From Myxococcales bacterium (GTDB lineage Bacteria > Myxococcota_A > Polyangia > Polyangiales > Polyangiaceae), in assembly GCA_016720545.1 (NCBI GenBank), contig JADKKK010000003.1:473516-537515 (forward strand): a DNA stretch of 64,000 bases, written 5' to 3'. Each line of letters begins with the position of its first letter. The first letter of the stretch is position 1. Below, piece by piece: positions 30,726 to 64,000 of the stretch. A program made the position numbers and the translations under genes. Below the pieces are notes generated by a model that was given only the letters and a program-made list of their open reading frames with translations, did no database searches and was not told the DNA's origin.

Positions 30726-31398
30726 GTGCCGCGCGCCCCGCGCCCCGCGCCCGCCCCCAACGAACGGGAGACCCTATGCCTTCGTCGTCGCCCGCGCCGC
30801 AGCATCTTCTCCGTCGACGTGGAGGACTGGTTCAACACGGTGCGGAACGAGCCCAAGCCCTCGGACTGGGACACGATCCCCTCGCACGTGGAGAAGAACC
30901 TGCGAAGGTTCCTCGACCTGTTCGACGAGACGGGCACGAAGACCACGTGCTTCTTCCTCGGCTACGTCGGCCGGCGCTTCCCCGACCTCGTGAAGGAGAC
31001 CGCGGCGCGGGGCCACGAGATCGCGTCGCACGGGTTCTTCCACAGCTGCATTTACGATCTCACCCGCGAGGCCTTCCGTAAGGACATCGCGGAGTCGAAG
31101 AAGGTCCTCGAGGACGCGGCGGGCAAGGCGGTCAAGGGCTACCGGGCGCCAGGCTTCTCCGTCGACCAGCGCTCGCCGTGGTTCTTCGAGGTGCGTCCTC
31201 GACGAGGAGCGACCGGTTGTATATTACATTCACCCGCGCGAGATCGATCCGCACCACCCGCGCTCGCCGATGAAGCCCCTCGCGAAGTTCAGCGCCTACG
31301 TGAACCTCGCGTCCACCGAGCCGAAGGTGCGACAGCTCTTGCGCGACTTTCCGTCGACGAGCTTCGAGGGCTATCTGCGCGACCACCCGGTGTCGTAG
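30726..31398 (+). pseudogene. Disrupted polysaccharide deacetylase (PEP-CTERM/XrtA-locus-type NodB family) with a +1 frameshift and an apparent ~80-aa internal deletion.
   Basis: The N-part in frame 1 has SVDVEDWF, GHEIASHGFFH and YRAPGF. The C-terminus (LDEERPVVYYIHPREIDPHHPRSPMKPLAKFSAYVNLA...DHPVS*) continues in another frame from about 31190 and stops at 31396-31398. The middle of the family is missing. Confidence 0.5.
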
Positions 31399-33599: not shown

Positions 33600-34290
33600 G
33601 CGTGACGAGCGGCTAGTCCCCTGGAAGCGTGATCCCTTCCAGAAGTCGCGCGGCTCGGCCTTTCGCCACAAGGGAGCGAGGGGGTGTCCCGTTTTCGGCG
33701 GCGGTGGGAGGATACTCATGTTCGAGGGTCGGCGTTCTCGCGCGGTCACACCCGAAACCACTGTCCCCTGAGCGCAAAGCGCCGCCTCCACCGCGCGGAA
33801 CGACGTCCGAGTTGAGACGGCCCGCCGCCGCCGAAAACGGGCACCCCCTCGCTCCTCGGAATGACACCGAAGACCGGACTCTGATACGAACCACGACTCC
33901 AGGGACTAGTCTCCTGGAAGCGTGATCCCTTCCAGAAGTCGCGCGGCTCGGCCTTTCGCCACAAAGGGAGCGAGGGGTGTCCCGTTTCCGGCGGGGGGGG
34001 GGGGATGTTCGAGGGTCGGCGTTCGCGCGGTCACACCCGAAACCACTGTCCCCTGAGCGCAAGCGCCGCCTCCACCGCGCGGAACGACGTCCGAGTTGAG
34101 GACGGGCCCGCCGCCGCCGAAAACGGGGCACCCCCTCGCTCCTCGGAATGACACCGAAGACCCGACTTCTGATACGAACCACGACTCCAGGGGACTAGCT
34201 AGTCTCCTGGAAGCGTGATCCCTTCCAGAAGTCGCGCGGCTCGGCCTTTCGCCACAAGGGAGCGAGGGGGTGTCCCGTTTTCGGCGGCGT
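33600..34290. repeat. Tandem direct repeat, ~295-bp unit x 2.3 copies, each unit carrying a ~30-bp internal inverted repeat, a 7-bp hairpin and near-palindromic ends at ACTAGT.
   Basis: Units start at about 33606, 33905 and 34197, each beginning (c)tagtcYcctggaagcgtgatcccttccagaagtcgcgcggctcggcctttcgccaca…. Internally GGGAGCGAGGGGGTGTCCCGTTTTCGGCGGCGG pairs with CCGCCGCCGAAAACGGGCACCCCCTCGCTCC about 110 nt downstream. Copy 2 carries a G10 tract. Confidence 0.7.
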
Positions 34291-34470
34291 GAAAGCCCGG
34301 GGCAGGGAAAGCTCCGGGTGGCGTTGCGCGAAGCCCGCCGCAGCGGCGGGCTGTTTCGGCTCTCGTCGCGACCTTGACGGCGAGCCCGCCCCGCGGGCTT
34401 TGAGCGGGTTGATCCCCGGATTTCCCTGCGGGCTTTCAGCCCGGTGGCGGCTAACCGGGATGGGCCCCCC

Positions 34471-34683
34471 TCAGTTCGGCTGGCCCTCGGGGTCGTCCGC
34501 CGTTCGTCCGGTGGTGCACCGGGCCACGCACTGCTGCTGCTGCTCGCCGCAGTCGTTGTAGTTCGTGCCCGACGGCGCCTTCCGCACACAGTCGTTGTAC
34601 TGCTTGTCGCAGGCCGCGGTGCACACCGAGTTGCACCCGCCCGCGAGCGTGGGCCGCGAGCGCGAGCGCGAGCGCGAAGGCAA
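34471..34683 (-). pseudogene. Small Cys-rich peptide gene (mature part …CNSVCTAACDKQYNDCVRKAPSGTNYNDCGEQQQQCVARCTTG…) apparently separated by a frameshift from its signal peptide.
   Basis: The strongly GC3-biased Cys-rich frame has no ATG/GTG start. A good signal peptide (GTG-SPRRPRPRLPLAFALALALAAHA) lies just upstream in the -1 frame, and the junction falls in a (GCGCTC)3-4 repeat. Confidence 0.35.
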
Positions 34684-34754
34684 GAGGGAGGCGGGGGCGC
34701 GGACGCCTTGGGGACACGGGCACGGGATCGCTCACCCCCAAACCATGCGCTACG

Positions 34755-36776
34755 GTGGCGATCATGGCAACCTCGGCGCCGCGCGGCGCGCGCGACCCCG
34801 GACTCGGCGCAGTCGAGCACCACAAGACCCTCTGCAACCGCGACTGTCCCGACGTGTGCGGCATCGTCGCGACTGTGGAGGGCGGTCGCGTGACGCGCCT
34901 CCGGGGCGATCCCGAGCACCCCATCACGCGCGGCTTCTTGTGCCACCGCACGAGCCATTTCTTGGAGACGCAGTACGACCCCGCGCGGCTCACCACGCCG
35001 CTGTGGCGCGCGCGGCTCGACGACGAATTTCAGCCCATTTCGTGGGAAGAGGCGCTCACCCGCGCCGCCGAGTCGCTCCTTCGGATACGCGCCGAATCCG
35101 GCCCCGCGGCCATTTTTCATTACCGAAGCGGCGGCTCCCTGGGGCTCTTGAAGCACCTCTCGGACTACTTCTTCGAGCGCTTCGGCCCGGTGACGCAGAA
35201 GCGCGGCGACATCTGCTCGGGCGCGGGCGACGCGGCGCAGCTGCTCGATTTCGGCGAGGAGGACAGCCGCGATCTGTCCGAGCTGAAAGATGCAAAGCAC
35301 ATCCTTCTGTGGGGGAAGAACGTCTTCGTCTCGAGCCCACACCTCATCCCGCTCTTGAACGAGGCGCGGCGGCGCGGGACGACCCTCGCGCTCATCGACC
35401 CCGTCCACCACAAGACCGCGTCGATCTGCGACCTGGTCGCCCAGCCCCGCCCTGGCGGTGATTTCGCGCTCGCCATGGCGGTCGGGCGGCGGCTCTTCGA
35501 GCTCGGCCTCACCGACCCCGAGGCCGCCACCTACTGCGACCACCTGGCGGAGCTGCGCGCCCTCTGCTTCTCCCGGAGCCTGGAGGCCTGGCGGGAAGAG
35601 GCCGACGTGCCGCTCGAGGCCATCGACGCGCTCGCGCGGCGCCTCGGCGACGGCCCCACCACGGTGTTCATCGGCTGGGGCATGGGGCGGAGGCAAAACG
35701 GCGGGGCCATCGTGCGCGCGCTCGACGCGCTCGTGGCCATCACCGGGAACCTCGGCGTGCCCGGGGGCGGCGCGTCGTTCTACTTCAAGCGGCGCGGGGC
35801 GTTCGACCTGTCGTTCATCGGGCGGGCGGCGCCGCCGCGCACGGTCTGCGAGCCGCGCTTCGGCGCCGAGGTGCTGGGCATGAGCGACCCGCCCATTCGC
35901 GCGGTGTGGATCACCGCGGGCAACCCGGTGGCCATGCTCCCGGAGTCGCGCACGATCGAGCGGGCGCTCCGCACGCGCGAGCTCGTCGTGGTGGTCGACG
36001 CGTTCCTCACCGACACGGCCCGCTGCGCGCACCTCGTGCTGCCCACCACCACCCTGCTCGAGGCCGACGATCTCCTGGGCTCCTACGGGCACGCCTTCAT
36101 CGGCGCCGCCGTGCCGGTGGTGCCGCCCCCGGAGGGCGTGAAGAGCGATCTCGGGATCGTGCAGGCCCTCGCCGAGCGCGTGGGCCTCGCGAGCGATCTC
36201 GCCGGCGACGCGCGCGCGTGGAAGGAGCGCATGCTCGCGAAGGTCGCCCCCTACGGGGTCACGCCGGAGCGCCTCGCCCAGGGCGCGGTGCCGAACCCGC
36301 TCGCGCCGAAGGCTCTTTTCGAGGGGCGGGTGTTCCCGACGCCGAGCGGAAAGGTCAACCTTATTTACGAGATGCCGACGCGAGGCGCGCCCCGCGTGAC
36401 GGAAGAGCACCCGCTCTTGCTCACCGCGCTGTCCACCGAGCGCTCGCAGTCCTCGCAGTGGGCACGCGGACGCTCGACCCCGCGCGAGGGCGCGAGCGCA
36501 GAGGAGCGCCTCGCGGTCGCCACGGTGCACCCCGACGCCGCGGCGAAGGCCGGGCTGTGCGACGGCGAGGAGGCCGTGGTCGAGGGGGGCCTCGGCTCAC
36601 TCCGCGTGCACGTGCGCTGCGACGCGAGGCAGCGCCGCGACGTGCTGCTGCTTCCGAAGGGCGGCCACCTGAGGGACGGGCGCTGCGCGAACGCGCTCAT
36701 CCCCGCCCGGACGACCGATCTGGGCGAGGGCGGCGCGCTGCACGACGAGCCGGTGCGGCTCCGGCGGCCGTCGTGA
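34755..36776 (+). CDS. Molybdopterin-dependent oxidoreductase (bis-MGD MopB superfamily; BisC / assimilatory nitrate reductase-like catalytic subunit).
   Basis: N-terminal 4Fe-4S Cys cluster (CNRDCPDVCGI…C) and MopB-family regions throughout 673 aa. Confidence 0.85.
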   Translation: MAIMATSAPRGARDPGLGAVEHHKTLCNRDCPDVCGIVATVEGGRVTRLRGDPEHPITRGFLCHRTSHFLETQYDPARLTTPLWRARLDDEFQPISWEEALTRAAESLLRIRAESGPAAIFHYRSGGSLGLLKHLSDYFFERFGPVTQKRGDICSGAGDAAQLLDFGEEDSRDLSELKDAKHILLWGKNVFVSSPHLIPLLNEARRRGTTLALIDPVHHKTASICDLVAQPRPGGDFALAMAVGRRLFELGLTDPEAATYCDHLAELRALCFSRSLEAWREEADVPLEAIDALARRLGDGPTTVFIGWGMGRRQNGGAIVRALDALVAITGNLGVPGGGASFYFKRRGAFDLSFIGRAAPPRTVCEPRFGAEVLGMSDPPIRAVWITAGNPVAMLPESRTIERALRTRELVVVVDAFLTDTARCAHLVLPTTTLLEADDLLGSYGHAFIGAAVPVVPPPEGVKSDLGIVQALAERVGLASDLAGDARAWKERMLAKVAPYGVTPERLAQGAVPNPLAPKALFEGRVFPTPSGKVNLIYEMPTRGAPRVTEEHPLLLTALSTERSQSSQWARGRSTPREGASAEERLAVATVHPDAAAKAGLCDGEEAVVEGGLGSLRVHVRCDARQRRDVLLLPKGGHLRDGRCANALIPARTTDLGEGGALHDEPVRLRRPS

Positions 36777-38590: not shown

Positions 38591-40452
38591 ACGGCGCCGG
38601 CGAGCGCCGCGTGCCGGGCGGCCTCGGCGTCCAGCGCCATGCTCTTCTCGAGCGCCGCGAGCCGGAGGTAGCCGCAGGGCGCGTGCGTCTTGCCGACCCG
38701 CTCGCGCAGCTTGGCGATGCGGTCGCGGCCCGCGGGCTCCCACACCTCGGCGAAGTACCGGCGCGTGGCCACCCCGCCGTCGGTGCCCTCCTCGGGGGCC
38801 GGCTCGCTGAACGCGGGGACGAGGGCGAGGCCCGCGACGACCAGGCCGCCCGCCGCGCGCCCCACGCGGCGCGCCCAGGTCTCGCGCGGGGGCGGCGCGA
38901 AGACCAGCAGCGAGCCGCAGGCGAGCGCGCCCGCGAGCACCACGAGGTAGCCAAAAGTCGGCGAGGAAACCCCTGCGAGATCAAGGAGATGGCGAGGCAC
39001 AAAGCCCGCGCGCAGCAGCGGCAGCGCGACCTCCGGGAGCGGCCGCCCCACGGTCTCGGGGAGCGTGTTGCACAGCACCGACACGAGGCCGGTCTGCGCG
39101 GCGCTCGCGAGGGCGGCGCCAGCCGCGAGGGCCCTCACCCACACTCGACGTGAGCGGCGCCCCCGCGCGAGCTGCTCTTGGGCGGTCACGGCGCCGAGCA
39201 CGAGGAAGGCGGGGCACGCCCCGAGGTACCTCGGGCCCACGGTCCACCCGCCACGCCAGTTGATGGCGGCGCTCACGGTGAGCACGAGCACACCGCAGGC
39301 GGCGAGCCACACGAGCGTGGCGCCGCGGCGAGCCCCGCGGCTCCGCGGACCGCCGAACCCCGAGAGCACGCCGAACGGCACGACGAGGAGGCCGAGCCAC
39401 AGATAGGGGCTCGTGCCGAAGAGCCCGTAGCCGCGGTTGAAGAGGAGGCTGCCCGCGTGCCCGAGATCGGGCGTCTGGATACCGAAATAGCCCTGGTTGA
39501 GCAGCCGCGCGAACTCGCCGTTTTCGCTCATGCGGTGGCCCGGCGTGAGGGGGCTGCCGAACGCGCGCCACTGGAAGAACGCCATGAGCGCGACGTGGAG
39601 GAGTCCGCCGCCTGCGAGCGCGGCGAACGGCCCGAGCCGGCTCGGGCGGAAGAGCGGCCTGAAGGTGACCGCGGCGTAGAGCGCGAGCACCACCGACACC
39701 GGCAGCGCGTGGTACTCGAGCAGCGTGACCCACCCGGCGCAGAAGCCGGCGACGAACGCGTCACGCGCGGTGCGGTCTCGCGACGGCGTGGTGCGGGCGC
39801 GCGCCGTGACGGCGAACGACACGAAGGCGGCGACGGCGAAGAGCGCGTGGCTCGCGAACATGAGGGCGTACGCGAGGTAGTTCGTGCCGAGCCCCAGCGC
39901 GGCCACGGCGGCCAGGCGGAGCACCGGATCGCGGGTCGTCGCGCGCAGATAGCGCTCGAGCCACACGAGGAACGCCAAGCACGGGAGCTGCACGCTGAAG
40001 AGACGCAGCGCCCACGTGGCGTCGGCGAGCCAGCGCGCGCGCGCTTCGGGCGGCGAGCGGAGCGTGGGTACCGGGCGGCCGAGCCGTGGCATCACCTTCG
40101 TGAAGGCCCAGTAGACCGGCACTCCGGCGTAGCTCACCGCGGGCGCCTTCACCGAGTAAAGGTGGAACACGCCGGTCTTCTTGTCGGGCGCCCGCGCCAT
40201 GTCGTTGGTCCAGCCGTGGCGGTCGACCATCGCGTCGATCTTGAACGTGCCCTCCTCGACCAGGGCCATGGTCATGTAGGTGCGCACGTTCTCGTTCGGG
40301 TTGTTGATGACCCCGATGTACGGGAACACGCCGACATAGACGACGAGCAGGAGCGCGAAGAACGCGCCCACGAACCCTGGCGTCTTGACGTTCCGAGCGC
40401 CCACCCCGACCCGTGTATCACCTCGCGCGTGTGTGTGTGTAGGCCGACTCAC
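38569..40452 (-). CDS. Polytopic membrane protein, GT-C-like (ArnT/PMT-like architecture), 627 aa.
   Basis: Multiple TM helices with periplasmic loops. GTG start in a GTGA overlap with the stop of the upstream amidotransferase gene. Confidence 0.65.
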   Translation of the reverse strand: MSRPTHTHARGDTRVGVGARNVKTPGFVGAFFALLLVVYVGVFPYIGVINNPNENVRTYMTMALVEEGTFKIDAMVDRHGWTNDMARAPDKKTGVFHLYSVKAPAVSYAGVPVYWAFTKVMPRLGRPVPTLRSPPEARARWLADATWALRLFSVQLPCLAFLVWLERYLRATTRDPVLRLAAVAALGLGTNYLAYALMFASHALFAVAAFVSFAVTARARTTPSRDRTARDAFVAGFCAGWVTLLEYHALPVSVVLALYAAVTFRPLFRPSRLGPFAALAGGGLLHVALMAFFQWRAFGSPLTPGHRMSENGEFARLLNQGYFGIQTPDLGHAGSLLFNRGYGLFGTSPYLWLGLLVVPFGVLSGFGGPRSRGARRGATLVWLAACGVLVLTVSAAINWRGGWTVGPRYLGACPAFLVLGAVTAQEQLARGRRSRRVWVRALAAGAALASAAQTGLVSVLCNTLPETVGRPLPEVALPLLRAGFVPRHLLDLAGVSSPTFGYLVVLAGALACGSLLVFAPPPRETWARRVGRAAGGLVVAGLALVPAFSEPAPEEGTDGGVATRRYFAEVWEPAGRDRIAKLRERVGKTHAPCGYLRLAALEKSMALDAEAARHAALAGAVAPETCK

Positions 40453-41298: not shown

Positions 41299-41970
41299 TC
41301 AGTGCGCCGGGTAGCTCGGAGCCGCGGGCGCGAGGCGAGGATCGAGGGTGACCTTCACCGTCGAGTCGGCGAGCGCGAGATCGATCGAGGCACACTGCTT
41401 GGCCTCCACGCCGACCCCCTCGGCGTGGTCCGCGAGCTTCCCGAGGGCGGTGTACTCTCGATCCGCCGCCTCGGCGTCTCGCCGCGCGAGGGCGTCGCGG
41501 ATCGCGGGCGCCCGCGCATCGGCGGCGCGGATCGCCACGTTGAGCTGCGTGAGCTTCTCGGTGAGGCACGCGGTGACCACGAGGTCGCGGGCGCGCTGGA
41601 GGCGCCTGCGGACGAGCGTCGACTGAGCTCGCATGCGGTCGAGGCGACGCTGCGACTCGGTGAGCTGCTCCTCCGGCGTGAGGCGTGTCTTCTTGTCCGC
41701 CGCCTCGGCTGTGGCCGTGACCGCGGGTGGCGCCTCCCCGGCCTGCGCGCGAGGTGCGACGGTGGCCGGCGGTGTGGGCCGGGCAGCCGGCTCGGCCGGC
41801 GGCGCGGGGCTTGGCGGGGCAGGCGGGGCAGGCGGGGCAGGCGGGGCAGGCTGGGCAGGCGTGGTGGCGACGTGCGCGGCGGACGCGGGCGGAGACGCGA
41901 GCGCCAGCGCCCCGTGTCCCACGAGCACGGCGGCGACCAGCACCCCGCGGAGGAGGCTCTTCGTCTTCAT
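41299..41970 (-). CDS. Secreted Pro-rich / coiled-coil protein, 223 aa.
   Basis: Signal peptide MKTKSLLRGVLVAAVLVGHGALALA. (PAPPAP)n is encoded by a 9-bp GGCGGGGCA-type tandem repeat. The C-terminal half is a helical coiled-coil-like region. Confidence 0.55.
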   Translation of the reverse strand: MKTKSLLRGVLVAAVLVGHGALALASPPASAAHVATTPAQPAPPAPPAPPAPPSPAPPAEPAARPTPPATVAPRAQAGEAPPAVTATAEAADKKTRLTPEEQLTESQRRLDRMRAQSTLVRRRLQRARDLVVTACLTEKLTQLNVAIRAADARAPAIRDALARRDAEAADREYTALGKLADHAEGVGVEAKQCASIDLALADSTVKVTLDPRLAPAAPSYPAH

Positions 41971-42079: not shown

Positions 42080-43180
42080 GTGAGGTCCACCAAGCTGGTC
42101 GCGTGCGCCACCCTGCCCGTCGCGTCCGTCGCGTCCGTCGCGCTCGCCACGCTCGTCGCGCTCGTCGCGTGTGGTGGCCCGCGCAAGCACACGAGCACGG
42201 GCGAGGGCTCGAGCGCGATCCAGGGAGGCACCGAGGACGAGGTCCACACCTTCGCGGTGGCCGTGATCATGCCGGAGTCCACCTGCTCGGGGACGCTCAT
42301 CGCGCCGAACCTGGTGCTCACCGCGCGCCACTGCGTCGCCGACAGCGGCAACAGCGACGAGGTCGACTGCGCGCGCGACCGGTTCTCCGCGCCCGCGCCG
42401 GCGAGCCGCTTCTCCGTGACCACCGCGAAGGTCGTTCGCGGCAGCACGGCGCGATACCGCGTGGCGAAGATCGTCGTGCCCTCGGAGTCCAAGTTCTGCG
42501 GCAACGACATCGCCCTGCTGCAGCTCACCGACAACGTTCCTGCCTCGGAGGCGACGCCGGCCACCCCGGCGCTCGACCCGCCGATGACCTCGCACCCCCT
42601 CTACGGCACCACGGTGGCGACGCTGGGCTACGGCATTTCGGGCCCCAAGAAGACCGACGACGGCACGCGGAGGCTGCGTGAGGACGTCCCCATCCAGTGC
42701 ACGCCGGGCGATCCCGAGAAGAGCTGCCGCCTCTCGGACTTCGACATCACCCCCACCGAGTTCGTCGCCGGCGACGGCCTGTGCTCGGGCGACTCCGGCG
42801 GCAGCGCGTTCGACCAAGAGAGCTTCACGCGCGGGCGCCCCGTCACGTTCGGCGTGCTCTCGCGAGCCAGCGAGACCGGCTTCAAGTGCATCGATGCCGT
42901 GTTCACCCGCACCGACGCGTTCGCAGGCCTGCTCGTCGCGGCCGCGACCGAGGCCGCGGAACAGGGCGGCTATCCGCTGCCCGTGTGGGCAGGCGGGGCG
43001 GGCAGCGCCGACGCGGGGGCCGAGGGCGGGCCCGCGGCTCCCCCCACGGTGGAGGCCGCGAGCCCACCGGGAGCGGCCTGCGCGACCGGCTCGGCGGGTC
43101 GAGGCCCCTCGGGCGCCGCCCCCGCCACGCTGGTCGCGGTCCTCGCTTGCGTAGCCGCGGCGCGGAGGCGACGGCGCTAG
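42080..43180 (+). CDS. Trypsin-like (S1) serine protease lipoprotein with a C-terminal MYXO-CTERM-like sorting tail.
   Basis: LVAC lipobox. His (LTARHC), Asp, and Ser (GDSGGSAF) catalytic-triad motifs. The tail …GAACATGSAGRGPSGAAPATLVAVLACVAAARRRRR is a Cys/Gly stretch, hydrophobic helix and poly-Arg. Confidence 0.8.
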   Translation: MRSTKLVACATLPVASVASVALATLVALVACGGPRKHTSTGEGSSAIQGGTEDEVHTFAVAVIMPESTCSGTLIAPNLVLTARHCVADSGNSDEVDCARDRFSAPAPASRFSVTTAKVVRGSTARYRVAKIVVPSESKFCGNDIALLQLTDNVPASEATPATPALDPPMTSHPLYGTTVATLGYGISGPKKTDDGTRRLREDVPIQCTPGDPEKSCRLSDFDITPTEFVAGDGLCSGDSGGSAFDQESFTRGRPVTFGVLSRASETGFKCIDAVFTRTDAFAGLLVAAATEAAEQGGYPLPVWAGGAGSADAGAEGGPAAPPTVEAASPPGAACATGSAGRGPSGAAPATLVAVLACVAAARRRRR

Positions 43181-54447: not shown

Positions 54448-54532
54448 AGACGGCGGGGGGGTGGTCGCACCTTGCGCACCTTGCGCGCCTTGCGCGCCTT
54501 GCGCACCGACGGGGCGGGCGTAGCGTGGAGCC

Positions 54533-56371: not shown

Positions 56372-57148
56372 ATGGCACCGTTCTTCATCTTCGGCGGCAT
56401 CCTGCTCCTCGTGGGCGTGATCATCACGGCCGCCAACCTCAAGAACTTCCGGCGCCGTCAGCGCATCCTGCAGACGCCGACCTCGCCGATCGCGCAGGCC
56501 CCGGGCGCCGGCCCCGTCGAGGTGAAGGGTCGCATCGTGCCGGGCGAGCAAGGCGTACTTCAGACGCCCTTCAGCGGTCGGCACGCGGTGTGGTGCCGCA
56601 TCACCGTGCTCGAGCACCGCTCCTCGGGCCGCAACAGCTATTGGGCCACCATCATCAAGGAGACCGACCAGCGCGAGTTCTTCGTGGACGACGGCTCGGG
56701 TCAGATGGCGAAGATCGTGCCCCACGGGGCCGAGGTCATCCTCGACGCGCAGAACGTCGCGAGCTCCGGCACGTTCAACGACGCGTCGCCGCACCTTCAG
56801 GGCTTCCTCGCCTCGCGCGGCCACTCCACCCAGACGTTCCTCGGCTTCAACAAGTCGATGCGCTACACGGAAGAGGTCCTCTCGCCGAACGATCCTCTGT
56901 ACGCGCTCGGACCTTCACGCCGCGAGGCCGGCCCGCCGGTGAACGACGGCTACCGCATGGCGCCCTCGAGCCAGCTCGTATTGGGCGCCGGTCACGGCGA
57001 GGCGCACGAGCTCATCCTCACCAACAAAACCGAGGAGCAGCTCGTGTCGCGGCTGCTCTGGGGGTTCGTGGGTGGCCTCATTTGCGTGGGCGTCTCGCTG
57101 GTGTGCGGCGCAATAGGTCTTATCTTTGCGATCGCCGAAATGATCTAG
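56372..57148 (+). CDS. GIDE-domain-like membrane protein with N- and C-terminal TM helices flanking a soluble domain.
   Basis: N-terminal TM FFIFGGILLLVGVIITAANL and C-terminal TM LLWGFVGGLICVGVSLVCGAIGLIFAIAEMI. Assignment to GIDE is by architecture and recalled family, not verified. Confidence 0.55.
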   Translation: MAPFFIFGGILLLVGVIITAANLKNFRRRQRILQTPTSPIAQAPGAGPVEVKGRIVPGEQGVLQTPFSGRHAVWCRITVLEHRSSGRNSYWATIIKETDQREFFVDDGSGQMAKIVPHGAEVILDAQNVASSGTFNDASPHLQGFLASRGHSTQTFLGFNKSMRYTEEVLSPNDPLYALGPSRREAGPPVNDGYRMAPSSQLVLGAGHGEAHELILTNKTEEQLVSRLLWGFVGGLICVGVSLVCGAIGLIFAIAEMI

Positions 57149-57161
57149 CCGAGGGCGACCG

Positions 57162-58175
57162 CTAGAAGCGACCGAGCAGCGCGCCGCCCGCGCCGCCGGG
57201 GCCCACGACAGGCACGAGGCTGACGCGATCTCGCTCGCGCGGGTTCGGCGTAGCCCACGGGCGCAGCACGAGCGCCGACACCACCGCGGCGCCCAAGAAC
57301 ACGCCGCCGCCAACGTAGCCAACGATCGACCCCGTGCCGAGGCCCGACGCCTTCGACGCGGCGTCCTCGAGGGGCTGGCAGCCGGGCGCCCCGGGCCGAG
57401 GGCAGGGCGCGCCGACGCTGAGGAGCCGGAGCTCGTCGTCCGAGCTGGCCGACATCGCGCCCATCACCGCGCCCGCCCCGAGGCCGGCGACGCCGACCAC
57501 GCCGAGCACCACGGGCACCGTCCACGAAGCCCCGGCTTCGCGCTCCGCGGGAGGCGGCGATGGCGGCGGCGGCGACGTGTCGCCCTCGAGCGCGACCACC
57601 ACCGTGCGCTCGGCGGGGCACGCCACGGGGCGCTTTCGCCGGCGCTGGCCGAAGGTCACGACGACCTCGTGCGGTCCGGCGAGCACCGCGATGGGGTCGG
57701 CGAGCGGGGCCTCGCCCGCGACGACGCCGTCGACGCGCACCTGGGTCCCGCGCGGCGTGCCCGGCGCGAGAGTGATGAGGCTCACCTTCGTGCCGAGGTC
57801 CGCGAAGAGCTTCTTGGCGAGCGTGGTGTGCGCGGGATCGGTCTGCGGCAGCTTCAGGAGCTCGCGAAAGTGGTGGTACGCGCCGAGCACGTGGCCTACG
57901 CGGTGCTCGGCGCGCGCGAGGTTGAACAGCACGTCGGGCTCCTTCAGGACCGCCCACGCCTGCGCGTACTTGAGCCTCGCCTGCTCGTGCTCGCCGCGCC
58001 CCCAGAGCGCGTGGCCCTCGTCGAACCGCTGCTTGGCCTCTGCGCTGAACGCATCCTCGGCGCGGGCCTCGGCGCCGCCCGCCGCCAAGGTGACGAGCCC
58101 CACGGTCAGCCCGAGCGCCGCCCGGACAAGCCACGTGCGCGCTCGCGTCCTCGCTTGCGCTTCACGCTCGCTCAC
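57162..58175 (-). CDS. TPR-like / PEGA-domain membrane protein, paralog A (337 aa).
   Basis: Signal peptide, a TPR-like helical region, a PEGA-like beta domain (TQVRVDGVVAGEAPL…LAGPHEVVV), a poly-Pro linker and C-terminal TM segments. GTG start in a GTGA overlap with the upstream beta-helix gene. Paralogous to 62453..63490. Confidence 0.7.
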   Translation of the reverse strand: MSEREAQARTRARTWLVRAALGLTVGLVTLAAGGAEARAEDAFSAEAKQRFDEGHALWGRGEHEQARLKYAQAWAVLKEPDVLFNLARAEHRVGHVLGAYHHFRELLKLPQTDPAHTTLAKKLFADLGTKVSLITLAPGTPRGTQVRVDGVVAGEAPLADPIAVLAGPHEVVVTFGQRRRKRPVACPAERTVVVALEGDTSPPPPSPPPAEREAGASWTVPVVLGVVGVAGLGAGAVMGAMSASSDDELRLLSVGAPCPRPGAPGCQPLEDAASKASGLGTGSIVGYVGGGVFLGAAVVSALVLRPWATPNPRERDRVSLVPVVGPGGAGGALLGRF

Positions 58176-59470
58176 GGCGCCACCTCCAGCTCGGACTGCG
58201 ACAGCCCCGCGGGGCCGTCATTCACTCCCGCCGCTCCGCCTACGCCTCCCGCTCCCCCGGCTCCTGCCTTCAGCGTCCCGTCTCCCGTGGGCTTCGTTCC
58301 CTTGTAGACTACAGCTACCGAGATCCCGCCCGCTCCGCCAGCTCCCGCTCCGCCCGCTCCGCCCTTCCCGCCGTCTCCCCCGCCGCAGCCCGGGGCAGCC
58401 ACCTCGGCCGCCCCAGGTCCGCCCCCGCCCCCGGTACCCCCGGTACCCCCGGTACCCCCGGCAGCGGCCGTGAGCGTCACGTTCGTCATCGTCACGTTCG
58501 AGCTCACGCTCAGCAGCGCGATGCTCCCGCCTCCGCTCTTGCCCCCCTTCCCTCCCGTACCCCCGCATCCCCCGCAGGCGCCTCCGCCTCCAAAGCTGTC
58601 CGCTCCGCGTGAGCCTCCGCCCCCGCCACCTTGACCGGGCAGTCCGCTCGCTCCCGCGGGCGCCTCCGACGGCGTCCACTCCCCGCTCCCGGATATCCCT
58701 CCCGGCGTCGTCACCTTCGCAGCTGGCGCTCCCTCGGCTCGCTCTGCTCCGGTGTTCCCCGAGCCGTTCGGCTCCGCAGCTACGCAGCTCGCTAGGGCGA
58801 CTCCACCCGCTCCGTCGGTCGGCGCGACCCCGCCCAGCGCCTCGGCTCCGCTCCCAGCCGTGATCCAATGGGGCGCCGCCGCCCCCCCTCCGGATCCGCC
58901 TCCCGAGCTGCACGTGCACGGCTTCGCCGCTCCCCCGCGCTCGCGCTCGCCGGGTTCCGTTCCCGTTCCCCGTCGCGTACGTCCCCGTCGTCCCGCCCGC
59001 TCCAGCCTCCCCAGCGAATCCACCCTTCGCCTCCACTCCCACCTTCCGTAGGCTCACCTTCACCGCCTCCACAGCCCACACTCCCACGCTCGTACGCGAC
59101 CCCGCCGTCCCCGCCGCTCCTTCGATGTCCAGCTCCGCCAGCGTCGCCGTCACCTTCCCTATCTTCACCGCGTACTCTGGCTTCGTCCCCACCACCTTCG
59201 CTCGCCCTCCAGCCTTCCCGAAGTCGCACGTCACTCCCGAGTACACCTCCACGTCGCTCTTCACCTCCACGCTCTCCGCGTACGTCCCCTCGCACACCAC
59301 CACCCGCCCGCGACCCGCAGAGAGCCCCTTCCCCACCGTCTTGTAGGGCTTCGTCCTCGTCCCCGCGTTCCCGTCGTCCCCACTCGGCGACACGTACACT
59401 CCGTAGCTGTCCACTAGGCACTTCCTCAGGGTTCTTCACTGGCTCGTTCGGCGTCTCGCACCCGCCCCCG
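58172..59470 (-). pseudogene. Beta-helix (DUF1565-like) / Gly-rich repeat protein, tandem copy 1. N-terminally truncated (no signal peptide or start) and frameshifted.
   Basis: The unit begins mid-domain (…GCETPNEPVKNPEE, with an extra G against the other copies) directly after the stop of copy 2. The N-part frame 58218..59414 shifts at about 58950 into the C-part frame 58172..59023 (…GGTGGTGG…SELEVAP*). Confidence 0.55.
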
Positions 59471-59473
59471 GCC

Positions 59474-60954
59474 TCACGGCGCCACCTCCAGCTCGGACTG
59501 CGACAGCCCCGCGGGGCCGTCATTCACTCCCGCCGCTCCGCCTACGCCTCCCGCTCCCCCGGCTCCTGCCTTCAGCGTCCCGTCTCCCGTCGGCTTCGTT
59601 CCCTTGTACACTACAGCTACCGAGATCCCGCCCGCTCCGCCCGCTCCCGCTCCGCCCGCTCCGCCCTTCCCGCCGTCTCCCCCGCCGCAGCCGGAGAGCG
59701 AGCCACCTCCAGCCGCCCCGGGTCCGCCCCCGCCCCCGGTACCCCCGGTACCCCCGGTACCCCCGGTACCCCCGGTACCCCCGGCAGCGGCCGTGAGCGT
59801 CACGTTCGTCATCGTCACGTTCGAGCTCACGCTCAGCAGCGCGATGCTCCCGCCTCCGCTCTTGCCCCCCTTCCCTCCCGTACCCCCGCATCCCCCGCAG
59901 GCGCCTCCGCCTCCAAAGCTGTCCGCTCCGCGTGAGCCTCCGCCCCCGCCACCTTGACCGGGCAGTCCGCTCGCTCCCGCGGGCGCCTCCGACGGCGTCC
60001 ACTCCCCGCTCCCGGATATCCCTCCCGGCGTCGTCACCTTCGCAGCTGGCGCTCCCTCGGCTCGGTCTGCTCCGGTGTTCCCCGAGCCGTTCGGCTCCGC
60101 AGCTACGCAGCTCGCTAGTGCGACTCCACCCGCTCCGTCGGTCGGCGCCACTCCGCCCAGCGCCTCGAGCCCGCTCCCAGCCGTATCCAATGGAGCGCCG
60201 CCTCGGGCCCCAGCGGTCACGCCTCCCGAGCTGCACGTGCACGGCTTCGCCGCTCCCCCCGCGCTCGCGCTCGCCGGGTTCCCGTTCCCGTTCCCCGTCG
60301 CGTACGTCCCCGTCGTCCCGCCCGCTCCAGCCTCCCCAGCGAATCCACCCTTCGCCTCCACTCCCACCTTCCGTAGGCTCACCTTCACCGCCTCCACAGC
60401 CCACACTCCCACGCTCGTACGCGACCCCGCCGTCCCCGCCGCTCCTTCGATGTCCAGCTCCGCCAGCGTCGCCGTCACCTTCCCCACTCTCACCGCGTAC
60501 TCTGGCTTCGTCCCCACCACCTTCGCTCGCCCTCCAGCCTTCCCGACGTCGCTCGTCACCCCCGAGTACACCTCCACGTCGCTCTTCACCTCCACGCTCT
60601 CCGCGTACGTCCCTCGCACACCACCACCCGCCCGCGACCCGCAGAGAGCCCCTTCCCCACCGTCTTGTAGGGCTTCGTCCTCGTCCCGGGGTTCCCGTCG
60701 TCCCCACTCGGCGACACGTACACTCCGTAGCTGTCCACTAGGCACTTCTCAGGGTTCTTCACTGGCTCGTTCGGCGTCTCGCACCCGGGCGGAACCACCA
60801 CGTCCACTCCCCCGTCCACCGACCCCTCCCCGACCCCGCCCTCTCCCACCCCTCCGTCCGAAGCCTCCGTCACGTAATAGTTGTTCGTCGTGCACCCCGA
60901 CCCCGAAACCAGGCCCGCCAGCACGAACGCGCACAGCGCCACCCCCGGCCTCAC
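59474..60954 (-). CDS. Secreted beta-helix (DUF1565-like) lipoprotein with a C-terminal Gly-rich repeat region, tandem copy 2. Apparent -1 frameshift at a C-run near 60615.
   Basis: GTG start in a GTGA overlap with the copy-3 stop. Signal peptide/lipobox MRPGVALCAFVLAGLVSGSGC. The N-domain YVSPSGDDGNPGTRTKPYKTVGKGLSAGRGRVVVCEG then continues in another frame (TYAESVEVK…). CCC here corresponds to CCCC in copies 1 and 3. Confidence 0.6.
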
Positions 60955-62434
60955 GGCGCCACCTCCAGCTCGGACTGCGACAGCCCCGCGGGGCCGTCAT
61001 TCACTCCCGCCGCTCCTCCCACGCCTCCCGCTCCCCCCGCTCCCGCCTTCAGCGTCGCGTCTCCCGTCGGCTTCGTTCCCTTGTAGACTACAGCTACCGA
61101 GATCCCGCCCGCTCCGCCCGCTCCCGCTCCGCCCGCTCCGCCCTTCCCGCCGTCTCCCCCGCCGCAGCCCGGCGTTCCGCCACCGGCCACCCCACCAAGT
61201 CCGCCCCCGCCCCCGGTACCCCCGGTACCCCCGGTACCCCCCGGTCCCCCCGGCAGCGGCCGTGAGCGTCACGTTCGTCATCGTCACGTGCGAGCTCACG
61301 CTCAGCAGCGCGATGCTCCCGCCTCCGCCCTTGCCCCCCTTCCCTCCCGTACCCCCGCATCCCCCGCAGCCGCCTCCGCCTCCAAAGCTGTCCGCCCCGC
61401 GTGACCCACCGCCGCCACCCCCTTGACCGGGCAGTCCGCTCGCTCCCGCGGCCGCCTCCGACGGCGTCCCCTCCCGCTCCCGGATATCCCTCCCGGCGTC
61501 GTCACCTTCGCAGCTGGCGCTCCTCGGCTCGGTCTGCTCCGGTGTTCCCCGAGCCGTTCGGCTCCGCAGCTACGCAGCTCGCTAGTGCGACTCCACCCGC
61601 TCCGTCGGTCGGCGCCACTCCGCCGAGCGCCTCGGCTCCGCTCCCAGCCGTGATCAACGGGGCGCCGCCGCCCCCTCCTCCGGATCCGCCTCCCGAGCTG
61701 CACGTGCACGGCTTCGCCGCTCCCCCCGCGCTCGCGCTCGCCGGGTTCCCGTTCCCGTTCCCCGTCGCGTACGTCCCTGTCGTCCCGCCCGCTCCAGCCT
61801 CCCCACCGAATCCACCCTTCGCCTCCACTCCCACCTTCCGAAGGCTCACCTTCACCGCCTCCACAGCCCACACTCCCACGCTCGTACGCGACCCCGCCGT
61901 CCCCGCCGCTCCTTCGATGTCCAGCTCCGCCAGCGTCGCCGTCACCTTCCCCACCTTCACCGCGTACTCGGGCTTCGTCCCCACCACCTTCGCTCGCCCT
62001 CCAGCCTTCCCGAAGTCGCACGTCACTCCCGAGTACACCTCCACGTCGCTCTTCACCTCCACGCTCTCCGCGTACGTCCCCTCGCACACCACCACCCGCC
62101 CGCGACCCGCAGAGAGCCCCTTCCCCACCGTCTTGTAGGGCTTCGTCCTCGTCCCGGGGTTCCCGTCGTCCCCACTCGGCGACACGTACACTCCGTAGCT
62201 GTCCACTAGGCACTTCTCAGGGTTCTTCACTGGCTCGTTCGGCGTCTCGCACCCGGGCGGAACCACCACGTCCACTCCCCCGTCCACCGACCCCTCCCCG
62301 ACCCCGCCCTCTCCCACCCCTCCGTCCGACTCGGCGTCGCACGTTCCGTTGTCGCAGAGCGACGGAATCGAAAAACACCCCGCGAACACGAGCGCGGTGG
62401 TCGTCGCGAGCCCAAGTGCAATGATCTTCTTCAT
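60951..62434 (-). CDS. Secreted beta-helix (DUF1565-like) lipoprotein with a Gly-rich repeat C-terminus, tandem copy 3. At least two single-base deletions in C-runs near 61440-61520 break the frame.
   Basis: Start MKKIIALGLATTTALVFAGC (lipobox) at 62434 with an intact N-domain. The frame is lost after …NTGADRAE (stop at 61502). The C-terminal Gly-rich part and …SELEVAP* (ending 60951) are in other frames. The corresponding copy-2 DNA has one more C at each site. Confidence 0.6.
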
Positions 62435-62452
62435 GTCGAGGCTCCTGGGCGC

Positions 62453-63490
62453 TCAGAACGAACCGGAGATCGAAGCGCCCGAGTAGCCGGGAGCGAACGT
62501 GGGGGCGAGCGTGGGGCCGCGGAGGAAGCCGTGCGTCGGCGTCCTCGGACGGGTCTCCCACGGGCGCATGATGAGCACGCTCACGACAGCGGCCCCGAGC
62601 GCCGCCGAGCCCCCGATGAGCCCGACCGCGCTCACGGTCCGCTGGGTCGAGGCGGCGTCGAGCTTGTCCGAGAGCGCCACGCAACCCGCGCTCGCGCGGT
62701 CTGCGCACACGCCAGATCGCTGGAGCCCCGTCGCGTCGTCGCGCGAGCCCACGCCCACGAAGTGGAACGTCGCGCCCACGCCGAGCCCCACGAGCCCCAC
62801 CCCGGCGAGGACGCCGGGCAAGAGCCAGCTGCCCTTCTCGCCCGCCTCAGCGGGCGGCGGCGTGACAGGCCCGGGGCTCGGCACCGCGGGAAGGGGAGGT
62901 CCATCCGCCGGCGGGTCCTCGTACGTCACGACGACGGTCTCGTTCGCCGCGCACTTCACCGGCTTGAGCTTCTCGCCCTTCGGCCCCTGCATGCGGACGA
63001 GGTGCTCCCCGACCTCGACGAGCACGAGCCCCTGGCCGGGTGTGCCGTCCACCTTGCAGCTCAGCGCGCGGAGGTCGAGCGCGCAGAGCTTGGTGCTCGC
63101 CTGGTCGAGCAGCGCCTGCGCGTCTCGGCGATCCGAGGCCGTCACCTTGTCGTTCTCGGGCAGCGCGAGGTAGCTCTTCAGGAGCGCGGCGGCCTCGAGG
63201 TAGTGGTACGTGCGGATCGTGGCCTCGGCCTGGTTCAAGAGCGAATTCGGGTTCTGTCCGCGCGCGTAGGCCTCGCGAAACTTGGCGCGAGCGCCCTCGT
63301 AGTCGCCCTTCGTGAACAGCTGCGCGCCCTCCTCGTGCAGCTTGGCGGCTTGCGCGCGGCGGCTCTTCAGGTCCTCGTCCTTGGGGCCCGCCAGCGCGTG
63401 GGGCGCGAGCGCCAGGTAGAACGCCACGAGGGCGAGGGCGGCGGCCTTGGTGGTGCACGAGCTCTTCACGGATCTCTCCACTTGCTTCAT
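62453..63490 (-). CDS. TPR-like / PEGA-domain membrane protein, paralog B (~345 aa).
   Basis: Signal peptide MKQVERSVKSSCTTKAAALALVAFYLALAPHALAG, a TPR-like region, a PEGA-like domain (SCKVDGTPGQGLVLVEVGEHLVRM), a Pro-rich linker, TM segments and a C-terminal …SGSF. The track ORF starts at an upstream TTG 63553. Confidence 0.7.
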   Translation of the reverse strand: MKQVERSVKSSCTTKAAALALVAFYLALAPHALAGPKDEDLKSRRAQAAKLHEEGAQLFTKGDYEGARAKFREAYARGQNPNSLLNQAEATIRTYHYLEAAALLKSYLALPENDKVTASDRRDAQALLDQASTKLCALDLRALSCKVDGTPGQGLVLVEVGEHLVRMQGPKGEKLKPVKCAANETVVVTYEDPPADGPPLPAVPSPGPVTPPPAEAGEKGSWLLPGVLAGVGLVGLGVGATFHFVGVGSRDDATGLQRSGVCADRASAGCVALSDKLDAASTQRTVSAVGLIGGSAALGAAVVSVLIMRPWETRPRTPTHGFLRGPTLAPTFAPGYSGASISGSF

Positions 63491-63549
63491 CGAGACGGTC
63501 TCATCGTCACAGGGGGCTCGGCGCGCCGGCGGCGTTCGCGTCGTTCTCC

Positions 63550-64000
63550 TCAAAATGGCCTCATCTTCGACGAGGTGGGCACCGGCTCGACCGATCCGGA
63601 GGCGGTGGCCGACGGGCGCGGCCCAGGCTCGGTGGGACCCGGGGCGGTGGCAGCCGCCGTGACGTGCGCAGGCGCGACCGTCGCCGCGCTCGGCGCGACC
63701 GCGCGCGGAGGTACGGCGGCGACCGTGGGTGCTCCTGCCGAGGGCCCCGGCGGCGTGACGACGGCCGAGGCGAGCCCGCTCGGCGACGCGGCGACGGACG
63801 GCGCGGGCGGAGCGGGCGGAGGGGCCGCGGACGGGACGCTCGAGGCGCTCGGCGCGGCCGCGATCAACGGGCTCACACCCATGTTTCTATTAACAAAATA
63901 GTACACCACGCTCGCCCCGAAGGTCACCATGAGCGCCCCGGAGACGGCCCCGACGAGGCGACGGCGACGGCGGGCCGCGCCCTCCGCGGCCTCTTCTGCT
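63550..64000 (-). CDS. Membrane-anchored protein, 3' part only (start lies beyond the window end). RRRRR + TM + Pro/Ala-rich region.
   Basis: The frame is open through 64000 (…AEEAAEGAARRRRRLVGAVSGALMVTFGASVVYYFVNRNMGVSPLIAAAPSASSVPSAAPPPAPP…MRPF*). The in-window ATG of the track ORF is internal. Confidence 0.45.
   Translation of the reverse strand, partial: AEEAAEGAARRRRRLVGAVSGALMVTFGASVVYYFVNRNMGVSPLIAAAPSASSVPSAAPPPAPPAPSVAASPSGLASAVVTPPGPSAGAPTVAAVPPRAVAPSAATVAPAHVTAAATAPGPTEPGPRPSATASGSVEPVPTSSKMRPF

What the first reader, a model, noticed from the sequence alone, without database searches (positions are those of the whole stretch)
58172..62434. Each of the three beta-helix paralogs is broken by frameshifts at short C-runs, either pseudogenization or systematic sequencing error
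Copy 2 has CCC where copies 1 and 3 have CCCC (…gtacgtcccctcgcacacc…), which splits the VVVCEG|TYAESV junction. Copy 3 has two one-base losses in C-runs near 61440-61520 relative to copy 2. Copy 1 lacks its 5' end entirely and carries an extra G (cctgaggaagtgcc against cctgagaagtgcc). The copies are otherwise diverged (GNAG/GNPG, TSDVGKAG/TCDFGKAG), so this is not assembly collapse. Similar frame breaks occur in the deacetylase (30726..31398) and the small Cys-rich gene (34471..34683), which raises suspicion of indel errors across this assembly. If the frameshifts are real, the locus is a decaying multigene family. C4-5 tracts are too short for classical phase variation.
Basis: seen in the sequence. 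Interest (0 to 1): 0.55.

Follow-up and report, generated by a model that had tools for sequence, protein, structure and literature searches.

The report
Frameshifts in tandem lipoprotein genes
Three near-identical tandem copies of a myxobacterial surface-lipoprotein gene are each broken by one-base slips in short G/C runs; these slips are most likely consensus errors that a long-read metagenome assembly leaves in repeated DNA, so most of the apparent gene decay is probably not real.

Summary
Window 58172-62434 (minus strand) carries three tandem ~1.48-kb paralogs of a ~490-aa Gly-rich beta-helix lipoprotein. They contain nine 1-bp indels, all in short G/C runs, plus a 190-nt 5' deletion in copy 1.

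The indels are confined to repeats. The array has 9 in 4.3 kb, against 2-3 in about 31 kb of unique DNA (Fisher p=2e-7). A second, non-coding tandem repeat (33.6-34.3 kb) has at least 11 private small indels and a poly-G smear.

Two other long-read-like assemblies of the same species (99.3-99.9% identical in unique DNA) each carry a different set of array indels. One has 125 gap openings in the array and none in 6 kb of adjacent unique DNA. Seven of the nine window sites are intact in its matching copies.

After frame correction every copy is full length, has no stop codon, and gives dN/dS of 0.33-0.77.

Best reading (~0.7): repeat-localised long-read consensus errors, not assembly-wide error and not a decaying family. 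Two larger lesions look like genuine structural differences: the copy-1 5' deletion and the deacetylase break, which is a 230-nt deletion rather than a C-run slip. Only reads can settle it. Interest is low.

The parts
60951..62434 (-). Copy 3 (W3). First gene of the array, with its own lipoprotein signal peptide (MKKIIALGLATTTALVFAGC). Broken by three 1-bp indels.
   Evidence: Full length once the frame is corrected, with no in-frame stops.
59474..60954 (-). Copy 2 (W2). Signal peptide MRPGVALCAFVLAGLVSGSGC. Broken by one 1-bp deletion.
   Evidence: The corrected 493-aa protein aligns end to end with intact 480-530-aa homologs.
58172..59477 (-). Copy 1 (W1). The start codon is kept, but about 190 nt encoding the signal peptide and N-terminus are deleted. 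It also has five 1-bp indels.
   Evidence: The deletion is absent from both sister assemblies.
61524..61524 (-). W3 frameshift 1: GGG to GG on the coding strand (-1).
   Evidence: The intact GGG is present in JADIZX copy 3.
61470..61470 (-). W3 frameshift 2: GGGGAGTGG to GGGAGGGG (-1 plus T to G).
   Evidence: The same run is also one G short in the noisy JADIZX copy 3.
61241..61252 (-). W3 frameshift 3: +1 (G5 to G6) inside the (GGGGGTACC)n repeat.
   Evidence: Private to the window.
60614..60614 (-). W2 frameshift: GGGG to GGG (-1) at VVVCEG|TYAESV.
   Evidence: It lies in a block otherwise identical in all 7 copies. JADIZX copy 2 has GGGG.
59464..59465 (-). Junction of the ~190-nt 5' deletion in W1, between CCGGGGG and CCCGGGTG microhomology.
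59425..59425 (-). W1 +1 (GAGAAG to GAGGAAG).
   Evidence: Private to the window.
58959..58959 (-). W1 -1 (AACGGGAAC to AACGGAAC).
   Evidence: Private to the window.
58937..58937 (-). W1 -1 (G6 to G5).
   Evidence: The same G5 state is seen in JADIZX copy 1.
58862..58885 (-). W1 pair of -1 (58885) and +1 (58862), 23 nt apart, inside variable cassette 1. The +1 site (TTGGATCACG) reads as a hybrid of the two alleles TTGATCACG and TTGGATACG.
59738..59782 (-). In-frame 9-nt repeat (GGGGGTACC = Gly-Thr-Gly). Five units in W2, three in W1 (58433-58459), about four in W3 (61215-61252), and four to seven in sister-assembly copies.
60075..60224 (-). Hypervariable cassettes 1 and 2 of W2. Equivalents: W3 61542-61691 and W1 58752-58901. 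Cassette 3 lies at 59693-59721, 61170-61198 and 58391-58416. Cassette alleles occur in shuffled combinations among copies and strains.
   Evidence: All four combinations of cassette-2 and cassette-3 alleles are present.
62453..63553 (-). Upstream TPR/PEGA-like membrane protein. This is the conserved partner gene of the lipoprotein module.
57162..58175 (-). Downstream paralogous TPR/PEGA-like membrane protein (337 aa).

Best explanation
The locus is a genuine tandem array of three paralogous genes. Two sister assemblies of the same species carry four copies (CAWKVH) and three copies (JADIZX). The genes encode a ~490-aa secreted lipoprotein with an N-terminal right-handed beta-helix-like domain and a Gly-rich C-terminal half. 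The array sits between two TPR/PEGA-like membrane-protein genes in an uncultured Polyangiaceae-type myxobacterium.

The copies are kept about 95% identical by gene conversion, apart from three variable cassettes and a 9-nt repeat.

The nine 1-bp frameshifts are most likely not in the organism. They are probably homopolymer-length consensus errors left where a long-read metagenome assembly could not be polished. In near-identical tandem repeats, reads from different copies, and from co-occurring strains with different copy numbers and cassette alleles, are piled together.

Shown: the indels are confined to repeats, differ between assemblies, and leave otherwise intact coding sequence.
Inferred: the sequencing technology and the polishing failure.

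The ~190-nt 5' deletion of copy 1 is a different kind of lesion and may be a true structural variant.
For: 1. Localisation. The array has 9 private 1-bp indels in 4263 nt. Comparable unique DNA has 2 in 31,735 nt (p=2e-7), and the excess remains about 20-fold per G/C run. In 31,001 unique positions covered by at least two other assemblies, there are 33 private substitutions but only 3 private 1-bp indels.

2. A second repeat in the same window shows the same fault, more severely. The non-coding ~293-nt tandem repeat at 33613-34298 has at least 11 private 1-2-bp indels and a 12-G smear within 33816-34060. This is relative both to its own sibling units and to two other assemblies.

3. The frameshifts are not reproducible across assemblies.
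- CAWKVH010000008.1 is 99.3-99.7% identical in the flanks. It has four copies, two of them called as complete ORFs (487 and 499 aa), and its own private indels.
- JADIZX010000009.1 has 125 gap openings in 3.9 kb of array but none in 5955 nt of adjacent unique DNA.
- Seven of the nine window sites are intact in the matching JADIZX copies.
- None of the window's indels recurs in any CAWKVH copy.

4. Mutation spectrum. In the 7-copy alignment there are about 14 private 1-bp indels against about 16 isolated private substitutions.

5. Some indels look like merged alleles: W1 TTGGATCACG, CAWKVH copy A GGAGCTCGAGG and its scrambled cassette 2.

6. Coding integrity. The corrected copies have no stop codons and dN/dS of 0.33-0.77. 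They align full length to intact homologs. W3's private changes include five consecutive synonymous Gly-codon changes downstream of its frameshifts.

7. A related complete chromosome (OZ245328.1) has two intact tandem copies.

8. It is documented that homopolymer-length errors persist in repeats after short-read polishing (PMC8812927) and that long-read indels cluster in homopolymers (PMC9262707).
Against: - No reads were available, and the window's source assembly and sequencing platform are unknown. It was not on record.
- Two of the nine sites (61470 and 58937) show the same shortened run in the matching JADIZX copy. This could mean inherited mutations rather than recurrent error.
- The runs are short (G2-G7), which modern long-read consensus usually gets right at good coverage.
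- The same assembly carries lesions that are not homopolymer errors: a 230-nt deletion in the deacetylase and a 190-nt deletion in W1. This strain may therefore truly be losing genes.
- W1, the copy without a signal peptide, has the most indels (5), as expected for a dead gene.
Confidence: 0.7

Rival explanations
1. The frameshifts are real. This strain's array is a recently inactivated, decaying multigene family, and every copy is a pseudogene.
For: - As assembled, every copy is disrupted.
- W1 also lacks its signal peptide through a 190-nt deletion and carries the most indels.
- The same window has a true 230-nt out-of-frame deletion in a deacetylase gene that is intact (300 aa) in two Illumina assemblies. 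It also has a private +1 in a small lipoprotein gene.
- Two frameshift sites are shared with the matching JADIZX copies.
Against: - Nine independent 1-bp indels would have had to arise in a lineage only about 0.1-0.7% diverged in unique DNA from strains that lack seven of them.
- The ratio of indels to substitutions is close to 1:1 in the array, against 1:11 in unique DNA.
- There is no nonsense mutation, and dN/dS is 0.33-0.77.
- The W2 indel sits in a block otherwise identical in all seven copies.
- A non-coding repeat elsewhere in the window shows the same indel excess plus a poly-G smear, which selection cannot explain.
Confidence: 0.2
2. The array is a variation system. Gene conversion shuffles cassettes among copies, and the frameshifted or 5'-truncated copies act as silent donor cassettes or ON/OFF contingency genes for a surface lipoprotein.
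For: - The copies are mosaics: long identical blocks are interrupted by three hypervariable cassettes, whose alleles occur in all four pairwise combinations.
- Copy number (3 versus 4) and the 9-nt repeat number vary between strains.
- W1 has no signal peptide, as silent cassettes typically do not.
- The variable cassettes fall in low-confidence loop regions of the model.
Against: - The frameshift sites are scattered short runs (G2-G7), not one long tract, and they differ between copies and assemblies.
- The first copy, which should be the expression site, is itself broken in all three assemblies, at different places.
- The mosaic pattern could partly reflect chimeric assembly.
- Related species have intact, more diverged tandem copies.
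Confidence: 0.07
3. The frameshifts are real but are bypassed during expression, by programmed ribosomal frameshifting or transcriptional slippage.
For: None specific. The only link is that the breaks lie in G/C runs.
Against: - The positions differ in every copy.
- The shifts go in both directions.
- There is no conserved slippery motif.
- Homologs and sister copies are read in a single frame.
Confidence: 0.01

Closest known systems
Residual homopolymer-length errors in repeat regions of long-read bacterial and metagenome assemblies (Polypolish paper PMC8812927; Nanopore R10.4 paper PMC9262707)
   Same: The indels are +/-1 in homopolymers. They concentrate in repeated sequence while unique sequence is clean. 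They differ between independent assemblies. They produce spurious frameshifts in genes that otherwise look intact.
   Different: The affected runs are short (2-7 nt). The technology and polishing history of this assembly are unknown, and no reads were examined.
Pseudogene decay in tandem multigene families
   Same: As assembled, all three paralogs are disrupted. One also has a large 5' deletion.
   Different: There are no nonsense mutations and dN/dS is below 1. Most lesions are not shared with very close relatives. The indel-to-substitution ratio is far above that of the surrounding genome.
Simple-sequence contingency loci (poly-G/C phase variation, as in Campylobacter, Neisseria and Haemophilus; recalled from general knowledge)
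   Same: Frameshifts at G/C runs in genes for surface-exposed proteins.
   Different: There is no long tract (typically 7-8 nt or more). The sites are scattered and differ between copies.
DUF1565 (PF07602) / pectin-lyase-fold right-handed beta-helix proteins
   Same: Close homologs hit the first ~45-54 positions of DUF1565 above Pfam's threshold. The model's N-terminal half matches beta-helix enzymes such as pectin methylesterase and rhamnogalacturonan lyase.
   Different: The window protein itself gives no Pfam hit. The fold matches are partial and weak (best E=1.9e-3, TM about 0.2). The Gly-rich, Cys-containing C-terminal half has no characterised relative, and the function is unknown.

Membership tests
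Repeat-localised long-read consensus error | Indels are single-base length changes in homopolymers | tested here: met
   All nine are +/-1 at G/C runs of 1-7 nt.
Repeat-localised long-read consensus error | Errors are enriched in repeated sequence relative to unique sequence of the same assembly | tested here: met
   9 in 4263 nt versus 2 in 31,735 nt, p=2e-7. A second, non-coding tandem repeat has at least 11 indels in about 245 nt plus a poly-G smear.
Repeat-localised long-read consensus error | Errors are not reproduced in independent assemblies of the same organism | tested here: met
   7 of 9 sites are intact in the matching JADIZX copies, and none of the window's indels recurs in any CAWKVH copy. 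Each assembly has its own set. Two sites are shared with the noisy JADIZX array.
Repeat-localised long-read consensus error | Accurate reads contradict the consensus at these sites | not testable with these tools
   No read data. The source assembly was not found.
Pseudogenes / decaying gene family | Disabling lesions are present | tested here: met
   As assembled, every copy is frameshifted, and W1 lacks its 5' end.
Pseudogenes / decaying gene family | Relaxed selection: dN/dS near 1, with nonsense mutations and non-3n indels outside homopolymers | tested here: not met
   dN/dS is 0.33-0.77 and no copy has an in-frame stop. The only lesion outside a run is the W1 5' deletion.
Pseudogenes / decaying gene family | Lesions are inherited by close relatives | tested here: not met
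   Only 2 of 9 sites are shared with a sister assembly that is over 99% identical in unique DNA.
Simple-sequence phase-variable contingency gene | One long homopolymer or short-repeat tract whose length toggles the frame at the same site in different cells or strains | tested here: not met
   The sites are scattered and the runs are 2-7 nt. The sites differ between copies and assemblies.
DUF1565 / right-handed beta-helix fold | Significant match to PF07602 or a solved beta-helix structure | tested here: inconclusive
   Corrected W2 gives no Pfam hit at E<=0.01. Homologs P0001, P0002 and P0039 hit DUF1565 positions 2 to ~45-54 at 29-30 bits, above the cut-off of 20.3. The AF2 model has pLDDT 79.8. 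Foldseek finds only partial beta-helix matches, best E=1.9e-3.
Bacterial lipoprotein | Signal peptide ending in a lipobox Cys | tested here: inconclusive
   The N-termini end in ...LVFAGC (W3) and ...VSGSGC (W2). In the homolog alignment nearly every N-terminal hydrophobic stretch ends in a Cys. No dedicated predictor was run.

The most novel reading that the evidence does not exclude
The frameshifts and the 5'-truncated copy are real. The array would then be a gene-conversion-driven variation locus for a surface beta-helix lipoprotein in a free-living myxobacterium. Disrupted copies would serve as silent donor cassettes, and the three hypervariable cassettes plus the Gly-Thr-Gly repeat would be reshuffled between copies and strains.
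Probability: 0.07. Interest if true: 0.6.

Novelty: not a real feature. Interest (0 to 1): 0.12.

Why it matters
The main value is as a caution. In long-read metagenome-assembled genomes, near-identical tandem paralogs can look like pseudogene families because consensus errors survive there while the rest of the contig is clean. Counting these as pseudogenes would inflate estimates of gene decay.

The array itself is real and mildly interesting. It forms a conserved module of TPR/PEGA gene, lipoprotein gene(s) and TPR/PEGA gene. The lipoprotein copies carry mosaic variable cassettes, and copy number differs between strains. The function is unknown.

If the frameshifts were real, the locus would suggest cassette-based surface variation in a myxobacterium. 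The evidence here points the other way.

Tried and rejected
- Finding the window's own source assembly. Exact look-ups of the 337-aa flanking protein and the 310-aa W3 ORF found nothing.
- Finding accurate short-read contigs across the array. A 30-mer conserved in all copies had no match in metagenome contigs. The second scan was not used, because the adjacent sequence would be equally absent. The Illumina contigs of this species reached through flanking genes all stop before the array or within 160 nt of it. The array states could therefore not be checked against short reads.
- Assembly-wide indel error. Rejected, because unique DNA is almost free of private indels and a frame-versus-ORF scan found no other broken genes.
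- The deacetylase break as a homopolymer slip. Rejected. It is a 230-nt deletion that removes DUF3473 positions 1-68.
- Systematic, context-specific basecalling error. Unlikely, because identical sequence contexts in sibling copies of the same assembly are not affected. The errors look stochastic or caused by mixed reads.
- Programmed frameshifting. Rejected, because the positions and directions are inconsistent.
- Pfam search on the flanking TPR/PEGA-like proteins gave only a sub-threshold TPR_2 hit.
Full report
WHAT IS THERE

Window 58172-62434, read on the minus strand, holds three head-to-tail copies of a ~1.48-kb gene: W3 (62434-60951), W2 (60954-59474) and W1 (59477-58172). The DNA is about 73% G+C with strong strand skew, because the coding strand is rich in Gly codons.

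Joining the two frames of W2 gives a 493-aa protein. It aligns end to end with hundreds of intact 480-530-aa proteins from myxobacterial genomes and metagenomes, including Labilithrix, Polyangiaceae and Pendulispora.

The N-termini look like lipoprotein signal peptides. Close homologs match the start of DUF1565. An AlphaFold model (pLDDT 79.8) gives only weak, partial matches to right-handed beta-helix enzymes. 'Beta-helix lipoprotein' is therefore a reasonable label, but no function can be assigned.

The gene is flanked on both sides by paralogous TPR/PEGA-like membrane-protein genes (62453-63553 and 57162-58175). The order TPR/PEGA, then one to three lipoprotein genes, then often a second TPR/PEGA gene, recurs in other Polyangiales loci. 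In the complete chromosome OZ245328.1 there are two intact tandem copies.

CHECKING THE OBSERVATION

- W2 has one -1 at 60614 (GGGG to GGG).
- W3 has -1 at 61524, -1 at 61470 and +1 at about 61242. Its frame is not restored.
- W1 has lost about 190 nt between its start codon and 'GCETPNEP' (junction 59464/59465). It also has +1 at 59425, -1 at 58959, -1 at 58937, -1 at 58885 and +1 at 58862.
- All nine small indels are length changes of G runs on the coding strand.

HOW THE COPIES RELATE

A protein look-up led to a sister assembly, CAWKVH010000008.1 (GCA_963852875.1). Its flanks are 99.3-99.7% identical to the window, and it has four copies.

Aligning all seven copies shows a mosaic.
- Long blocks are identical in every copy.
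- Three short hypervariable cassettes interrupt them.
- A 9-nt (Gly-Thr-Gly) repeat has three to seven units.
- Cassette alleles occur in shuffled combinations. All four combinations of cassettes 2 and 3 are seen once the third assembly is added.

The array is therefore homogenised and reshuffled by gene conversion, provided the assemblies can be trusted at that scale.

ARE THE FRAMESHIFTS REAL?

Six lines of evidence bear on this.

1. They are confined to repeats.
- I compared the window with CAWKVH, with a second long contig JADIZX010000009.1 (GCA_016704525.1), and with several short Illumina-type contigs of the same species.
- In 31,001 unique positions covered by at least two other assemblies, the window has 33 private substitutions and only three private 1-bp indels. 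All three are +1 in G/C runs: 13673 and 25293 are intergenic, and 34650 is in the small Cys-rich lipoprotein gene.
- The array has nine indels in 4263 nt. That is about 30-fold more per base and about 20-fold more per G/C run (p=2e-7 and 8e-6).

2. The only other tandem repeat I examined in the window shows the same fault, more severely.
- The non-coding ~293-nt repeat at 33613-34298 has 2.3 units here and 1.3 in JADIZX.
- Within 33816-34060 it carries at least 11 private 1-2-bp indels.
- There, a run of 12 G (about 33995-34007) replaces 'CGGTGGGAGGATACTC'. This is relative both to its own sibling units and to the other assemblies.
- CAWKVH has an even longer poly-G smear at the same place.
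- Selection cannot produce this in non-coding DNA. It is the mark of a poor consensus where reads pile up ambiguously.

3. The frameshifts are not reproducible.
- JADIZX has no gaps against the window in 5955 nt of adjacent unique DNA, but 125 gap openings in 3.9 kb of array. In that assembly the array is plainly unpolished.
- CAWKVH has two copies called as complete ORFs (487 and 499 aa) and its own private indels. These include a compensating +1/-1 pair 27 nt apart in the 499-aa copy, and a scrambled cassette in copy A.
- At the window's nine sites, the matching JADIZX copies have the intact run length at seven.
- None of the window's indels recurs in any CAWKVH copy.

4. The mutation spectrum is wrong for natural decay.
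- Among the seven copies there are about 14 private 1-bp indels against about 16 isolated private substitutions. In unique DNA the ratio is 1:11.
- The W2 indel sits in a block otherwise identical in all seven copies.

5. Some indels read as merged alleles. W1 has 'TTGGATCACG', where the two alleles are TTGATCACG and TTGGATACG. CAWKVH copy A has 'GGAGCTCGAGG'. This is what a consensus of mixed reads produces.

6. The coding sequence is otherwise healthy.
- After frame correction none of the seven copies has a stop codon, and pairwise dN/dS is 0.33-0.77.
- W3's private differences downstream of its first two frameshifts include five consecutive synonymous Gly-codon changes.

The published background fits. 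Long-read assemblies retain homopolymer-length errors, and these are hardest to remove in repeats because short reads align ambiguously there (PMC8812927, PMC9262707).

That the window comes from a long-read assembly is my inference. It runs through three near-identical 1.5-kb repeats, whereas every Illumina-type contig of this species that I could reach stops at the edge of the array.

WHAT ARGUES THE OTHER WAY

- I had no reads and could not identify the source assembly.
- Two sites (61470 and 58937) show the same shortened run in the matching JADIZX copy. JADIZX is very noisy there, so this may be coincidence, but inheritance is possible.
- The runs are short.
- This assembly also carries two lesions that are not homopolymer errors. 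One is the ~190-nt deletion in W1. The other is a 230-nt out-of-frame deletion in the XrtA-type polysaccharide deacetylase gene. That gene is intact at 300 aa in the two Illumina assemblies, and the deleted segment is present in all four other assemblies compared.
- These two lesions are probably real structural differences of this strain or population, so W1 may be a genuine dead copy.

VERDICT

The assembly is not error-ridden overall, and the locus does not look like an old decaying family.

My estimates are:
- repeat-localised consensus error for the nine 1-bp indels: about 0.7
- real, very recent pseudogenisation: about 0.2
- a cassette or contingency variation system: about 0.07
- programmed frameshifting: about 0.01

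The deacetylase 'frame break' is a 230-nt deletion. The Cys-rich gene break is a single private extra C, which two sister assemblies lack; in them the gene is an intact 97-aa lipoprotein. That one could be an error or a real mutation.

Copy-resolved accurate reads at the listed coordinates would settle the matter. As a biological finding this ranks low. As a warning about pseudogene calls in repeats of long-read MAGs it is useful.

Noticed in passing
window 33613-34298: A non-coding tandem repeat of about 293 nt has 2.3 units here and 1.3 in JADIZX. The stretch 33816-34060 carries at least 11 private small indels and a 12-G smear (about 33995-34007). CAWKVH has a poly-G run of 30 nt or more at the same place. 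This looks like a consensus artefact where repeat copy number differs between strains.
   Followed up: yes
window 31191-31192 (gene 30726-31398, + strand): The XrtA/PEP-CTERM-type polysaccharide deacetylase has a 230-nt out-of-frame internal deletion that removes DUF3473 positions 1-68. The gene is a 300-aa ORF in two Illumina assemblies, and the deleted segment is present in all four other assemblies compared.
   Followed up: yes
window 34650 (gene about 34471-34760, - strand): A small Cys-rich lipoprotein gene is split by one window-private extra C (CCC versus CC). This separates the signal peptide (...LALALAA) from the lipobox (TLAGGC). Both sister long-read assemblies have an intact 97-aa ORF.
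   Followed up: yes
window 13673 and 25293: Two intergenic homopolymers are one base longer in the window than in 3-4 other assemblies, including Illumina contigs (C6 versus C5, G5 versus G4). They may be residual errors or private mutations.
   Followed up: partly
window 54478-54504; 13667; 28871; 41586; 41843-41856; 42116-42129: Short tandem repeats (8-9-nt units; blocks of 9, 18, 27 and 48 nt) differ in unit number between assemblies of the same species. Several lie in or near ORFs and change length in multiples of 3.
   Followed up: no
L019 (CAWKVH), at the equivalent of window 37383; L034 (JADIZX), at the equivalent of window 17497: The sister assemblies have their own private small indels in single-copy genes. 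CAWKVH splits a 583-aa gene into 411 + 172 aa, and JADIZX splits a ~477-aa peptidase gene into 376 + 83 aa. The window is intact at both.
   Followed up: partly
window 57162-63553; L002-L009, L012, L018: A conserved module recurs across Polyangiales: a TPR/PEGA-like membrane-protein gene, then 1-4 Gly-rich beta-helix lipoprotein genes, then often a second TPR/PEGA gene. In OZ245328.1 a DUF559-like ORF sits between the two lipoprotein copies. Function unknown.
   Followed up: partly
window 39634-39654: A cluster of 10 window-private substitutions lies within 21 nt of a coding region, relative to two sister assemblies. It looks like a small recombination patch or a local misconsensus.
   Followed up: no
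window 56372-57148 (+ strand): A 258-aa membrane protein matches the GIDE family, annotated as an E3 ubiquitin ligase (PF12483, E=1e-8). It is conserved next to a Rieske protein and a LON substrate-binding-domain protein.
   Followed up: no
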